This document shows positions 1-47,801 of a DNA stretch of 64,000 nt, piece after piece (the first letter of the stretch is position 1; the number at the start of each line of letters is the position of its first letter). This DNA is from the human T2T-CHM13v2.0 reference genome, Homo sapiens. The translations under genes and the position numbers were made by a program. A model generated the notes under the pieces. That model was given only the letters and a program-made list of their open reading frames with translations. It ran no database searches and was not told the DNA's origin. The DNA is taken from NCBI RefSeq assembly GCF_009914755.1, contig NC_060947.1, one strand, 5' to 3'.

Positions 1-2701
1 TCTGAATAGACCAATAACAGGCTCTGAAATTGGGGCAATAATTAATAGCCTAGCAACAAAAAAAAGTCTAGGACCAGATGGATTCACAGCCAAATTCTAC
101 CAGAGGTACAAGGAGGAGCTGGTACCATTCCTTCTGAAACTATTCCAATCAGTAGAAAAAGAGGGAATCCTCTCTAACTCATTTTATGAGGCCAGCATCA
201 TCCTGATACCAAAGCCGGGCAGAGACACAACAAAAAAAGAGAATTTTAGACCAATATCCCTGATGAACATCGATGCAAAAATCCTCAGTAAAATACTGGC
301 AAACGGAATCCAGCAGCATATCAAAAAGTTTATCCACCGTGATCAAGTGGGCTTCATCCCTGGGATGCAAGGCTGGTTCAACATATGCAAATCAATAAAT
401 GTAATCCAGCATATAAACAGAACCAAAGACAAAAACCACATGATTATCTCAATAGATGCAGAAAAGGCCTTTGATGAAATTCAACAACCCTTCATGCTAA
501 AAACTCTCAATAAATTAGGAAGTGATGGGACGTATCTCAAAACAATAAGAGCTATCTATGACAAACCCACAGCCAATATCGTACTGAATGGGCAAAAACT
601 GGAAGCATTCCCTTTGAAAACTGGCACAAGACAGGGATGCCCTCTCTCACCACTCCTAGTCAACATAGTGTTGGAAGTTCTGGCCAGGGCAATCAGGCAG
701 GAGAAAGAAATAAAGGGTATTCAATTAGGAAAAGAGGAAGTCAAACTGTCCCCGTTTGCAGATGACATGATTGTATATCTAGAAAACCCCATCGTCTCAG
801 CCCAAAATCTCCTTAAGCTGATAAGCAACTTCAGCAAAGTCTCAGGATACAAAATCAATGTGCAAAAATCACAAGCATTCTTATACACCAATAACAGACA
901 AACAGAGAGCCAAATCATGAGTGAACTCCCATTCACAATTGCTTCAAAGAGAATAAAATACCTAGGAATCCAACTTACAAGGGATGTGAAGGACCTCTTC
1001 AAGGAGAACTACAAACCACTGCTCAAGGAAATAAAAGAGGATACAAACAAATGGAAGAACATTCCATGCTCATGGGTAGGAAGAATCAATATCGTGAAAA
1101 TGGCTATACTGCCCAAGGTAATTTATAGATTCAATGCCATCCCCATCAAGCTACCAATGACTTTCTTCACAGAATTGGAAAAAACTACTTTAAAGTTCAT
1201 ATGGAACCAAAAAAGAGCCCGCATGGCCAAGTCAATCCTAAGCCAAAAGAACAAAGCTGGAGGCATCACACTACCTGACTTCAAACTATACTACAAGGCT
1301 ACAGTAACCAAAACAGCATGGTACTGGTACCAAAACAGAGATATAGACCAATGGAACAGAACAGAGCCCTCAGAAATAATGCTGCATATCTACAACTATG
1401 TGATCTTTGACAAACCTGACAAAAACAAGAAATGGGGAAAGGATTCCCTATTTAATAAATGGTGCTAGGAAAACTGGCTAGCCATATGTAGAAAGCTGAA
1501 ACTGGATCCCTTCCTTACACCTTATACAAAAATCAATTCAAGATGGATTAAAGACTTAAATGTTAGACCTGAAACCATAAAAACCCTAGAAGATACCATG
1601 TTATTAACCTAGGCAATACCATTCAGGACAAAGGCATGGGCAAGGACTTCATGTCTAAAACACCAAAAGCAATGGCAACAAAAGTCAAAATTGACGAATC
1701 GGATCTAATTAAACTAAAGACTTTCTGCACAGCAAAAGAAACTACTATCAGATTGAAAAGGCAACCTACAAAATGGGAGAAAATTTTTGCAACCTACTCA
1801 TCTGACAAATGGCTAATATCCAGAATCTACAATGAACTCAAACAAATTTATAAGAAAAAAACAAACCACCCCATCAAAAAGTGGGCAAAGGATATGAACA
1901 GACACTTCTCAAAAGAAGACATTTATGCAGCCAAAAGACACATGAAAAAATGCTCATCATCACTGGCCATCAGAGAAATGCAAATCAAAACCACAATGAG
2001 ATACCATCTCACACCAGTTAGAATGGTGATTATTGAAAAGTCAGGAAACAAAAGGTGCTGGAGGATGTGGAGAAATAGGAACACTTTTACATTGTTGGTG
2101 GGACTGTAAACTAGTTCAACCATTGTGGAAGTCGGTGTGACGATTCCTCAGGGATCTAGAACTAGAAATACCATTTGACCCAGCCATCCCATTACTGGGT
2201 ATATACCCAAAGGATTATAAATCATGGTGCTATAAAGACACATGCACACGTATATTTATTGCATCACTATTCACAATAGCAAAGAGTTGGAACCAACCCA
2301 AATGTCCAACAATGATAGACTGGATTAAGAAAATATGGCACGTATACACCATGGAATACTATGCAGCCATAAAAAATGATGAGTTCCTGTCGTTTGTAGG
2401 GACATGGATGAAGCTGGAAACCATCATTCTCAGCAAACTATCGCAAGGACAAAAAACCAAACACCACATGTTCTCACTCATAGGTGGGAATTGAACAATG
2501 AGAACACATGGACACAGGATGGGGAACATCACACACCGGGGACTGTTGTGGGGTGGGGGGAGGGTGGAGGGATAACATTAGGAGATACACCTAATGTTAA
2601 ATGAGGAGTTAATGGGTGCAGCACACCAACATGGCGCATGTATACATATGTAACAAACCTGCACGTTGTGCTCATGTACCCTAAAACTTAGATAAAAAAA
2701 A
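1..2701 (+). mobile_element. LINE-1 (L1PA4/PA5-like), 3' part: ORF2 RT and C-terminal region, 3'UTR, short A tail; continues left of window
   Basis: ORF 263-1468 is L1 ORF2p ([12 protein letters not shown]). ORF2 C-terminus ...FSLIGGN ends at 2494. G-rich 3'UTR ending 'gtaacaaacctgcacgttgtg...ccctaaaactta'. Lacks L1HS diagnostics. Confidence 0.97.
2..2494 (+). pseudogene. Disrupted L1 ORF2p (reverse transcriptase and C-terminal domain)
   Basis: Frame open 2-1468, then TGG>TAG stop at 1466-1468. An insertion at 1594-1605 and later frameshifts split the rest (ORFs 1636-2109, 2312-2494). Confidence 0.93.
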
Positions 2702-2744
2702 GACAATGCAACTTTTAGAATTGAAAAAAACACAACAAAAAAAA

Positions 2745-45340: not shown

Positions 45341-45721
45341 GATCAATGTAAGCATAAAAGCTTGGGGAAAGGACATACTTGGTTAAGAATTATAATTACA
45401 AACAACGATGCAGTTTAAAACCTTTTAAAACTTCATACTGACAACATACTTCCTAAGGTGATCTCTCTGCACTTTTAATAATGGTGACACTCATATCATT
45501 TGTAATATACAACCAAAGAGAATAAAATATCTTCTTGTTAAATTTTATAAAATCAAAACAAATATATTGTGTAGATAATAGTACAGTGGTAACCAAAAGA
45601 ATTGTTCAAAAGAAAGTAAAGACTCTGGGAGTAAAGACTGAATCCTGAATGAAAGCTTTCCTGCCCAGCAGGGAAGCTGATTCGGCACAGAGTTTATGTT
45701 CTGGGGCAAGAGGCTTGGAGG

Positions 45722-47801
45722 ACAATATTAACTTTAAATGTAAATGGACTAAATGCTCCAATTAAAAGACACAGACTGGCAAATTGGATAAAGAGTCAAG
45801 ACCCATCAGTATGCTGTATTCAGGAAACCCATCTCACGTGCAGAGACACACATAGGCTCAAAATAAAAGGATGGAGGAAGATCTACCAAGCAAATGGAAA
45901 ACAAAAAAAGGCAGGGGTTGCAATCCTAGTCTCTGATAAAACAGACTTTAAACCAACAAAGATCAAAAGAGACAAAGAAGGCCATTACATAATGGTAAAG
46001 GGATCAATTCAACAAGAAGAGCTAACTATCCTAAATATATATGCATCCAATACAGGAGCACCCAGATTCATAAAGCAAGTCCTGAGTGACCTACAAAGAG
46101 ACTTAGACTCCCACACATTAATAATGGGAGACTTTAACACCCCACTGTCAATATTAGACAGATCAGCGAGACAGAAAGTCAACAAGGATACCCAGGAATT
46201 GAACTCAGCTCTGCACCAAGCGGACCTAATAGACATCTACAGAACTCTCCACCCCACATCAACAGAATATACATTTTTTTCAGCACCACACCACACCTAT
46301 TCCAAAATTGACCACATACTTGGAAGTAAAGCTCTCCTCAGCAAATGTAAAAAAACAGAAATTATAACAAACTATCTCTCAGACCACAGTGCAATCAAAC
46401 TAGAACTCAGGATTAAGAAACTCACTCAAAACCACTCACTACATGGAAACTGAACAACCTGCTCCTGAATGACCACTGGGTACATAACGAAATGAAGGCA
46501 GAAATAAAGATGTTCTTTGAAACCAACGAGAACAAAGACACAACATACCAGAATCTCTGGGACACATTCAAAGCAGTGTGTAGAGGGAAATTTATAGCAC
46601 TAAATGCACACAAGAGAAAGCAGGATAGATCTAAAATTGACACCCTAACATCACAATTAAAAGAACTAGAAAAGCAAGAGCAAACACATTCAAAAGCTAG
46701 CAGAAGGCAAGAAATAACTAAAATCAGAGCAGAACTGAAGGAAATAGAGACACAAAAAACCCTTCAAAAAATTAATGAATCCAGGAGCTGGTTTTTTGAA
46801 AGGATCAACAAAATTGATAGACCACTAGCAAGACTAATAAAGAAGAAAAGAGAGACGAATCAAATAGACGGAATAAAAAATGATAAACGGGATATCACCA
46901 CCGATCCCACAGAAATACAAACTACCATCAGAGAATACTACAAACACCTCTATGCAAATAAACTAGAAAATCTAGAAGAAATGGATAAATTCCTCGACAC
47001 ATACACTCTCCCAAGACTAAACCAGGAAGAAGTTGAATCTCTGAATAGACCAATAACAGGATCTGAAATTGTGGCAATAATCAATAGCTTACCAACCAAA
47101 AAGAGTCCAGGACCAGATGGATTCACAGCTGAATTCTACCAGAGGTACAAGGAGGAACTGGTACCATTCCTTCTGAAACTATTCCAATCAATAGAAAAAG
47201 AGGGAATCCTCCCTAACTCATTATATGAGGTCAGCATCATCCTGATACCAAAGCCGGGCAGAGACACAACCAAAGAAGAGAATTTTAGACCAATACCCTT
47301 GATGAACATTGATGCAAAAATCCTCAATAAAATACTGGCAAACGGAATCCAGCAGCACATCAAAAAGTTTAACCACCGTGATCAAGTGGGCTTCATCCCT
47401 GGGATGCAAGGCTGGTTCAACATATGCAAATCAATAAATGTAATCCAGCATATAAACAGAACCAAAGACAAAAACCACATGATTATCTCAATAGATGCAG
47501 AAAAGGCCTTTGACAAAATTCAACAACCCTTCATGCTGAAAACTCTCAATAAATTAGGTATTGATGGGACGTATTTCAAAATAATAAGAGCTATCTATGA
47601 CAAACCCACAGCCAATATCATACTGAATGGGCAAAAACTGGAAGCATTCCCTTTGAAAACTGGCACAAGACAGGGATGCCCTCTCTCACCACTCCTATTC
47701 AACATAGTGTTGGAAGTTCTGGCCAGGGCAATTAGGCAGGAGAAGGAAATAAAGGGTATTCAATTAGGAAAAGAGGAAGTCAAATTGTCCCTGTTTGCAG
47801 A
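45722..47801 (+). mobile_element. Internal L1PA2/3-like ORF2 fragment (endonuclease to RT N-terminal half), truncated at both ends
   Basis: Begins at TILTLNVNG (about ORF2 codon 9). ORFs 45992-46453 and 46492-47823 are separated by a 1-bp deletion near 46438. Ends at SLFA, just before the catalytic DD. No 3'UTR, poly(A) or TSD. Confidence 0.96.

What the first reader, a model, noticed from the sequence alone, without database searches (positions are those of the whole stretch)
289..47513. Likely ectopic gene-conversion tract between two different L1PA elements 47,039 bp apart
Seen: 289-474 aligns to 47328-47513 with only 2 differences in 186 bp. By-eye counts in the flanks are about 21 differences in 1-288 and about 13 in 475-762. 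Inside the tract both copies carry the same three non-consensus bases (305/47344 G, 329/47368 T, 339/47378 G), so both read [15 protein letters not shown] instead of the canonical ANRIQQHIKKLIHHDQ. Knowledge: outside the tract the copies differ at subfamily-type sites (attaat/atcaat, gagctg/gaactg, YLK/YFK, atcagg/attagg), i.e. older PA4/5-like versus younger PA2/3-like. Inference: non-allelic gene conversion in cis, probably from the upstream element into the downstream one, old enough to have gained two later substitutions.
Basis: partly seen in the sequence, partly recalled or inferred. Interest (0 to 1): 0.8.

Follow-up and report, generated by a model that had tools for sequence, protein, structure and literature searches.

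The report
Gene conversion between two neighbouring L1s
A younger LINE-1 fragment on the human X chromosome carries a patch of roughly 80-190 bases copied from an older LINE-1 lying 47 kb upstream, a clean but ordinary case of repeat-to-repeat gene conversion with no evident functional effect.

Summary
The drop in differences is not significant on its own. A 186-column window with 2 or fewer differences has P=0.18 over the true 2,080-column overlap, and another stretch is more alike.

The markers carry the case. The bases G/T/G at 305/329/339 occur together in only these two copies of the whole T2T genome, against 5,389 L1 copies matching the same stretch with those sites left free. Relatives chosen by flank alone almost all carry C/C/A, both for the older upstream copy and for the younger downstream copy. 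The downstream copy also has the older-lineage C at 382, where 17 of 17 copies of its own type have T, and shares T at 386.

Its flanks on both sides keep its own lineage's bases. This indicates ectopic gene conversion from the upstream copy into the downstream one, with a tract of at least 305-386 and at most 289-474.

The phenomenon is already known and this instance has no visible consequence, so interest is low.

The parts
1..2760 (+). Window part of c1, the older, full-length L1 that acts as donor. It starts about 3,430 bases before the window. The 3' A-rich tail lies at about 2691-2750.
   Evidence: The overlap with c2 extends upstream of the window. A 5'-end motif lies at about -3424. 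Translation matches RVT_1 at E=7.6e-43. Best unlinked matches to its flank are 91-95% identical. Its end branch is 0.032.
289..474 (+). Largest possible donor tract in c1. It is bounded by c1-private bases at 288 and at 475/476.
   Evidence: Only 2 differences from c2 fall in these 186 bp. Bounding sites are classified.
305..386 (+). Smallest donor tract in c1, spanned by the five shared markers: 305 G, 329 T, 339 G, 382 C and 386 T.
   Evidence: G, T and G are absent from 28 flank-chosen c1 relatives, apart from one G at 339. C at 382 is the c1-lineage state in 24 of 29 relatives.
45723..47801 (+). c2, the younger L1 fragment that acts as recipient. It runs from the start of ORF2 to mid reverse transcriptase. 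It lacks the 5' 2 kb and the 3' 2 kb, and has no poly(A) or target-site duplication.
   Evidence: Translation matches RVT_1 at E=4.8e-31. Best unlinked flank matches are 97-98% identical. Its end branch is 0.011. Its flanks carry late-derived bases of its own lineage (22 A, 91 T, 536 T and many upstream sites).
47328..47513 (+). Largest possible converted tract in c2.
   Evidence: Fully aligned flank-chosen c2 relatives (18 pieces) differ from c2 here at 7-13 sites (median 9), whereas c1 differs at 2.
47344..47425 (+). Smallest converted tract in c2, carrying the c1 bases at 305, 329, 339, 382 and 386 in c1 numbering.
   Evidence: Among flank-chosen c2 relatives the bases at 305/329/339 are C/C/A in 15, T/C/A in 4 and C/T/A in 1 of 20. 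They differ from c2 at 382 in 18 of 19 and at 386 in 16 of 19. 382 is T in 17 of 17 c2-type copies.

Best explanation
Two dead L1 copies lie on the same strand 47,039 bp apart in an intron of the PTCHD1-AS lncRNA gene. One is an older full-length element (c1) and the other a younger fragment truncated at both ends (c2).

After c2 had arrived, a short stretch of its reverse-transcriptase region was overwritten with the matching stretch of c1 by non-allelic (ectopic) gene conversion. The likely mechanism is inferred, not shown: homologous repair of a break in c2 that used c1 as template (synthesis-dependent strand annealing), or mismatch repair of a heteroduplex.

The transfer was one-way. It carried four changes private to c1 (305 G, 329 T, 339 G, 386 T) and one c1-lineage base (382 C) into c2. 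The tract is at least 82 bp (305-386) and at most 186 bp (289-474). If the bounding c1-private changes arose later, it could be somewhat longer, but no more than 261-535.

Afterwards each copy gained one change (319 in c1, 333 in c2), so the event is old, on the order of millions of years. No function is involved.
For: Shown directly:

1. Genome-wide uniqueness. The 35-base stretch 305-339 with G, T and G (319 and 333 left free) has 2 hits in the 3.1-Gb assembly, namely c1 and c2. With up to 1 mismatch there are 10 hits and none of the other 8 has all three bases. The T-G pair alone has 3 hits and the G-T pair 5 hits. 5,389 L1 copies match the stretch with the marker sites free. In the first 100 listed, G at 305 occurs 3 times and T at 329 never.

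2. Relatives picked without reference to the tract. Of 29 c1-flank relatives, 28 are aligned at all three sites: 23 carry C/C/A, none has G at 305, none has T at 329 and 1 has G at 339. Of 20 c2-flank relatives, none has G at 305, 1 has T at 329 and none has G at 339.

3. A lineage marker inside the tract. 382 is T in 17 of 17 c2-type copies and C in 24 of 29 c1-type copies; c2 has C. c2's flanks carry its own lineage's bases on both sides (22, 33, 43, 64, 91, 118, 232, 260 on one side, 536 and 694 on the other, and about 18 sites upstream).

4. Clustering. Over 2,073 bp, c1 has 44 private sites not shared with c2. The 5 shared non-majority sites are 305, 329, 339, 386 and one common polymorphism at -86. 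Agreement with c1 at 5 of 6 informative sites in the tract against 6 of 74 outside gives Fisher p=1.1e-4 and a scan permutation p=0.006.

5. Trees. In the tract c1 and c2 are sisters (bootstrap 98, SH-aLRT 75). In the flanks they sit at opposite ends of a ladder-like tree.

6. Direction. C at 382 is native to c1's lineage. Five odd bases in 82 bp fit c1's private-change density (2.3-3.3%) better than c2's (about 1%).

7. Precedent. L1-L1 and Alu-Alu conversion are documented (passages read in PMC5829575, PMC1920257 and PMC6598467).
Against: - The drop in differences alone is not significant (P=0.18), and a 177-bp stretch elsewhere in the overlap is even more alike without any marker support.
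- The AU test on the flanks did not reject a c1+c2 clade at 0.05 (log-likelihood 24.96 lower, p=0.098).
- Direction rests on one lineage site (382) plus a density argument.
- 386 is a CpG site where T is common by decay (9 of 27 c1-type copies).
- 422 and 466 turned out to be uninformative.
- Only one human assembly was available, with no ape orthologues and no reads, so neither the pre-conversion state nor the assembly could be checked.
- The search tool warns that counts for large repeat families can be lower bounds.
Confidence: 0.88

Rival explanations
1. Conversion occurred, but in the other direction (c2 into c1), or both copies were converted by a third L1 that is no longer present.
For: The shared triple by itself says nothing about direction. 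Direction rests mainly on one site, 382.
Against: c2-into-c1 needs c2 to have first gained six private changes in 82 bp, including a T-to-C reversal at 382. That compares with about 1% private change in its flanks. No third carrier of the triple exists in this genome.
Confidence: 0.06
2. There was no exchange. The shared bases are parallel mutations, or both copies descend from a rare L1 sub-lineage that carries them.
For: Each base occurs singly in some other L1 copies. Pairs occur in a few: five G-T-A copies, two G-C-G and one T-T-G. 339 and 386 involve CpG sites.
Against: The triple is in 2 copies only, and they are 47 kb apart. The flanks of c1 and c2 belong to different stages of the L1 lineage at 23 diagnostic sites, so they do not share a source. 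The G-T-A copies have mixed flank types and do not form a lineage. c2 would need 5 exact matches to c1 in 82 bp.
Confidence: 0.02
3. It is an assembly or polishing artefact that pasted c1-like bases into c2.
For: Only one assembly was examined and no reads were available.
Against: The copies are 47 kb apart and only 95% alike, so long reads should place them unambiguously. The patch is not identical to its donor (319 and 333 differ), which fits age rather than a copying error. The patch ends return cleanly to c2's own private bases at 257 and 499.
Confidence: 0.04

Closest known systems
Ectopic gene conversion between L1 elements
   Same: A short, one-way replacement of part of one L1 by the matching part of another L1 on the same chromosome, seen as a patch of foreign lineage inside an otherwise coherent copy. 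Three published cases resemble it. One is a conversion between L1PA3 LINEs in a human cell line (PMC5829575, passages read). The second is an intrachromosomal conversion that put a diverged middle segment into an L1 locus (NCLI34, PMC1920257, passages read). The third is repair of a break in a mouse LINE by conversion from endogenous LINEs (Tremblay et al. 2000, seen only as cited in PMC1920257).
   Different: Here the donor and recipient belong to clearly different stages of the L1 lineage and are only about 95% alike. The tract is short (82-186 bp). The event is old rather than a polymorphism or a cell-culture product. Its pre-conversion state was not observed.
Non-allelic gene conversion between neighbouring Alu elements
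   Same: Sequence exchange after insertion between dispersed repeats that lie near each other, which confuses subfamily assignment. Rates are reported to be raised for close copies and at hotspots, especially on sex chromosomes. This comes from Fawcett and Innan 2019 (PMC6598467, passage read), quoting Aleshin and Zhi 2010 and Kass et al. 1995.
   Different: The repeats here are L1s, not Alus. The distance is 47 kb, well beyond the under-10-kb range in which the quoted Alu signal is strongest.
Interlocus gene conversion in segmental duplications
   Same: The same mechanism and the same signature: shared derived variants in a short tract, with tree conflict between tract and flanks.
   Different: The partners here are not copies of one duplicated segment. 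Similarity between the two loci is confined to the L1 sequence itself.

Membership tests
Non-allelic (ectopic) gene conversion between dispersed repeats | A discrete patch of raised similarity between two paralogues, flanked by normal divergence | tested here: inconclusive
   The patch exists: 2 differences in 186 bp against a median of 9 per 186-column window. Identity alone gives P=0.18, and another stretch has 0 differences in 177 bp.
Non-allelic (ectopic) gene conversion between dispersed repeats | Derived bases shared inside the patch that are absent from each copy's own relatives | tested here: met
   G/T/G at 305/329/339 occur together in 2 copies genome-wide. The triple is absent from 28 c1 relatives and 20 c2 relatives chosen by flank.
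Non-allelic (ectopic) gene conversion between dispersed repeats | The recipient carries the donor lineage's base at a lineage-diagnostic site inside the patch, while both its flanks carry its own lineage's bases | tested here: met
   382 is C in c2, T in 17 of 17 c2-type copies and C in 24 of 29 c1-type copies. c2's flanks are c2-type at 23 diagnostic sites.
Non-allelic (ectopic) gene conversion between dispersed repeats | Tree conflict between patch and flanks | tested here: inconclusive
   In the tract tree c1 and c2 are sisters (98/75). In the flank tree they are far apart. Forcing them together on the flanks costs 24.96 log-likelihood units, but the AU p is 0.098.
Non-allelic (ectopic) gene conversion between dispersed repeats | One-way transfer: the donor keeps its own sequence | tested here: met
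   c1 has no c2-lineage base inside 289-474, and 382 stays C.
Non-allelic (ectopic) gene conversion between dispersed repeats | Tract length in the usual range (tens to a few hundred bases) | tested here: met
   The tract is 82 bp at minimum and 186 bp at maximum. [quoted passage not shown]
Non-allelic (ectopic) gene conversion between dispersed repeats | The pre-conversion state is seen at the orthologous locus of an outgroup | not testable with these tools
   No ape genome was on hand.
Primate LINE-1 (ORF2 region) | Encodes a reverse-transcriptase domain and occurs as thousands of dispersed copies | tested here: met
   RVT_1 matches at E=7.6e-43 (c1) and 4.8e-31 (c2). There are 5,389 genome-wide matches to the 35-base stretch with marker sites free.
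Named L1PA subfamilies (PA2/3 for c2, PA4/5 for c1) | Match to the reference subfamily consensus at its diagnostic sites | not testable with these tools
   No reference subfamily library was on hand. Only relative age was measured.
Minor L1 sub-lineage carrying G-T-G | Many unlinked copies share the three bases | tested here: not met
   There are 2 carriers, both at this locus.
Segmental duplication | Similarity extends beyond the repeat into the flanking unique DNA | tested here: not met
   A self-comparison of the window finds only the 762-bp L1 overlap for c1 against c2. Homology stops at 45723 and 47801.

The most novel reading that the evidence does not exclude
The two L1s may have exchanged sequence more than once and in both directions. 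Besides the c1-to-c2 patch at 305-386, there is a 177-bp stretch with no difference at all (c1 -1166..-990, window 45869-46045). This could be a c2-to-c1 conversion that wiped out c1's own changes there. That would make this pair a recurrent pairing site at 47 kb distance despite only 95% identity. It would also mean that ages of old L1 copies near younger ones are underestimated.
Probability: 0.1. Interest if true: 0.4.

Novelty: new member of a known kind. Interest (0 to 1): 0.22.

Why it matters
It matters little for biology. Both elements are dead, the patch lies in an intron of a non-coding RNA gene, and repeat-to-repeat conversion is well documented.

It has some use as a clean worked example. 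A short conversion between L1 copies of different age, 47 kb apart and only 95% alike, can be proven from a single genome by combining three things:

- genome-wide counts of the shared bases
- relatives chosen by flank alone
- one lineage-diagnostic site inside the tract

It also shows that an identity dip by itself is not enough. Such patches are one reason why subfamily calls and divergence-based ages of individual repeat copies can mislead.

Tried and rejected
1. Identity dip as a test. Random placement of the 106 differing columns gives a window this clean with P=0.18, and a run of 141 or more identical columns with P=0.05. I rejected it as the main evidence.

2. First reference panel. The 28 unlinked copies most similar to c1's tract are biased towards c1's bases. 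They suggested that T at 329 is native to c1's lineage (three c1-like copies have it). That was rejected when 0 of 28 flank-chosen c1 relatives had it.

3. 422 and 466 as extra markers. About half of c2's relatives differ from c2 there, but a copy at a similar stage to c2 (L093) has c2's bases. These sites are uninformative.

4. The five G-T-A copies as a sub-lineage. Their flanks are of mixed type and age, at 88-94% identity to c1. Rejected.

5. The 177-bp identical stretch as a second tract. No site in it separates the two lineages or is private to either copy, even with four extra c2-type copies. It is untestable here.

6. A link between the patch and c2's 3' truncation through one-sided repair. 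c2 returns to its own bases (499, 536, 694) before the truncation point, so newly copied c1 sequence does not reach the junction.

7. A scan of microbial genome contigs for a contaminating human copy of the triple found 0 matches.

9. A search for papers holding both 'PTCHD1-AS' and 'gene conversion' found 0. No wider search for this specific locus was made.

Rows dropped:
- L046 and L057, and L072 and L089, were only partly aligned and are left out of the difference ranges.
- L039 and L040 repeat the places of L017 and L014 and were not counted twice.
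Full report
**What is there**

The window starts inside an L1 element, here called c1. Fetching the DNA upstream shows that c1 is full length. A 5'-end motif lies about 3,424 bases before the window, and its A-rich 3' end is at about 2691-2750.

A second L1 piece, c2, lies at 45723-47801 on the same strand. 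It runs from the start of ORF2 to the middle of the reverse transcriptase. It lacks the 3' 2 kb and has no poly(A) stretch. It shares no repeat longer than 7 bases between its two flanks. Both copies translate to a Pfam RVT_1 domain (E=7.6e-43 and 4.8e-31), and the tract lies inside that domain. Similarity between the two loci is confined to the L1 sequence.

**Check of the observation**

At offset 47,039 without gaps, the copies differ at 21 sites in 1-288, at 2 sites in 289-474 (319 and 333), and at 13 sites in 475-762.

Because c1 continues upstream, the real overlap is 2,080 alignment columns at 94.9% identity. c1 -1166..-990 (window 45869-46045) has no difference in 177 bp. If the 106 differing columns are placed at random, a 186-column window with 2 or fewer differences appears with P=0.18. 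So the dip in differences is real but unremarkable.

**How common are the three bases?**

The window's own genome (3.1 Gb, 24 contigs) could be searched.

- The 35 bases 305-339 with G, T and G fixed, and 319 and 333 left free, occur twice: in c1 and c2.
- Allowing one mismatch gives 10 places. The eight others are five G-T-A, two G-C-G and one T-T-G, and none has the triple.
- Patterns that do not depend on the rest of the stretch give 3 places for the T-G pair and 5 for the G-T pair. c1 and c2 are included in both.
- The same stretch with the marker sites free matches 5,389 places. In the first 100 listed, 305 is G in 3 and 329 is T in none.

The tool warns that counts in large families can be lower bounds.

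**Relatives chosen without looking at the tract**

My first panel was the copies most like c1's tract. It is biased towards c1's bases and misled me for a while about 329. I therefore picked relatives by flank only.

With c1's -600..288 as query, the best 40 of 5,457 candidates are 91-95% identical. In the 29 fetched:
- the three sites read C/C/A in 23, T/C/A in 3, A/G/A in 1 and C/C/G in 1, and one has a deletion there;
- the tracts differ from c1's at 5-28 sites (median 11; 27 fully aligned, 2 dropped).

With c2's 46440-47327 as query, the best 40 of 1,879 candidates are 97-98% identical. In the 20 tract pieces fetched:
- the sites read C/C/A in 15, T/C/A in 4 and C/T/A in 1;
- the tracts differ from c2's at 7-13 sites (median 9; 18 fully aligned, 2 dropped), which is about twice the flank divergence.

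c1 differs from c2 in the tract at only 2 sites.

c2's relatives differ from c2 again and again at the same tract sites: 305, 329, 333 and 339, then 382 (18 of 19) and 386 (16 of 19), and in about half the copies 422 and 466.

Eight of these relatives were fetched for 1..762, and four of those also for the 1,310 bases upstream.

- **382.** It is T in 17 of 17 c2-type copies. These are the 8 relatives plus 9 copies from the biased panel that share c2's 22 A. It is C in 24 of 29 c1-type copies. c2 has C.
- **386.** This is a CpG site. It is C in 8 of 8 c2 relatives, and T in c1, in c2 and in 9 of 27 c1-type copies.
- **422 and 466.** These are not informative. One relative at a similar stage to c2 (L093) has c2's bases there.

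Outside the tract, c2 carries its own lineage's bases on both sides. These are 22, 33, 43, 64, 91, 118, 232 and 260 on the left, 536 and 694 on the right, and about 18 sites upstream.

**Tests**

Sorting every site of the 2,073-bp overlap gives:

| Class | Sites |
|---|---|
| Private to c1 | 44 |
| Private to c2 | 23 |
| Lineage-diagnostic | 23 |
| Both copies share a base that is the minority in both reference groups | 5 |

The five shared sites are 305, 329, 339, 386 and -86. The last is a common polymorphism (T in 12 of 29 and 2 of 8).

Among the 80 sites where c1 departs from the c2-type majority, c2 agrees with c1 at 5 of 6 in the tract and at 6 of 74 outside it. This gives Fisher p=1.1e-4. 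A permutation test for such a cluster anywhere gives p=0.006.

A tree of the tract makes c1 and c2 sisters (bootstrap 98, SH-aLRT 75, with the bootstrap not fully settled). A tree of the flanks is ladder-like, with c1 among the old copies (end branch 0.032) and c2 among the young ones (0.011). Forcing c1 and c2 together on the flanks costs 24.96 log-likelihood units, but the AU test gives p=0.098, so it does not reject at 0.05.

**Reading**

The simplest account is one ectopic gene conversion from c1 into c2.

- c1 had gained private changes at 305, 329, 339 and 386 and had its lineage's C at 382.
- A stretch holding these replaced the matching stretch of c2.
- Later c1 changed at 319 and c2 at 333. 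Alternatively, 319 escaped through patchy repair.
- The tract covers at least 305-386 (82 bp).
- It is bounded by 288 and 475/476 if those c1-private bases are older than the event (186 bp).
- In any case it is bounded by c2's own bases at 260 and 536.

Direction is inferred from two things. C at 382 is native to c1's lineage. Five odd bases in 82 bp fit c1's private-change density (44 in 1,887 bp overall, about 3% in 1..762) but not c2's (about 1%).

The mechanism, repair of a break in c2 using c1 as template, follows from what is known of gene conversion and is not shown here.

One post-event change per copy in 82-186 bp, set against c2's total of about 1%, places the event somewhere in the middle of c2's lifetime, with very wide error. 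Absolute dates need ape orthologues.

**Rivals**

- *Parallel mutation or a rare sub-lineage.* This is contradicted by the genome-wide counts and by the different lineage stage of the two flanks.
- *An assembly error.* This cannot be excluded without reads. It is unlikely at 47 kb and 95% identity, and the patch is not identical to its donor.
- *Reverse direction or a lost third donor.* This remains possible at a few percent.

**Comparison with what is known**

Conversion between dispersed repeats is established.

- I read passages describing a conversion between L1PA3 LINEs in a human cell line (PMC5829575).
- I read passages describing an intrachromosomal conversion that inserted a diverged middle segment into an L1 locus, and a citation of break repair in a mouse LINE by conversion from endogenous LINEs (PMC1920257).
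- A review passage on Alu conversion reports raised rates for copies under 10 kb apart and hotspots on sex chromosomes (PMC6598467).
- Two further papers name gene conversion among the processes that blur L1 history and subfamily calls (single passages).

A search for 'PTCHD1-AS' together with 'gene conversion' found no paper. I made no wider search for this locus.

The case is therefore a new instance of a known kind.

**What stays open**

- The subfamily names. No reference consensus library was on hand; PA2/3 and PA4/5 are plausible from relative age only.
- The date of the event.
- Whether the event is fixed in humans.
- Whether the 177-bp identical stretch is a second exchange.
- How c2 lost its 3' end.

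Noticed in passing
window 45869-46045 (matches c1 -1166..-990, outside the window; L031:5834-6010): c1 and c2 are identical over this 177-bp stretch, which is more alike than the reported tract. No lineage-diagnostic or private site falls in it, so it may be chance or a second conversion in the other direction that erased c1's own changes.
   Followed up: partly
window 45723 and 47801 (the ends of c2): c2 is truncated at both ends. It has no poly(A), and its flanks share no repeat longer than 7 bases. This fits either a later deletion or a non-classical, endonuclease-independent L1 insertion as defined in PMC1920257. Ape orthologues would tell which.
   Followed up: partly
L031:3560-3600 and window 2691-2760: c1 is a full-length element of about 6.2 kb. 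Its 5' end lies about 3,430 bases before the window. Its tail is a broken A-rich stretch with about 50 bases of other sequence inside. An 11-base word just before the 5' end recurs, with one mismatch, near 2742-2752 and may be the target-site duplication.
   Followed up: partly
window 6891-7738 and 43492-44977: Much older L1-like fragments on the same strand, 66-77% identical to c1. They play no part in the exchange.
   Followed up: no
L017 and L027 (G000:C7:49825945-49826130 and C7:49814510-49814695): Two L1 copies about 11 kb apart on opposite strands are both among the 40 best genome-wide matches to c1's tract, and both carry G at 305. This may be another pair of neighbours that exchanged sequence.
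   Followed up: no
c1 private changes, e.g. -133..-117, 475-476, 520-522: c1's private changes are clustered, with several pairs or triplets within a few bases. Simple Poisson tests on difference counts therefore overstate significance in this element.
   Followed up: no
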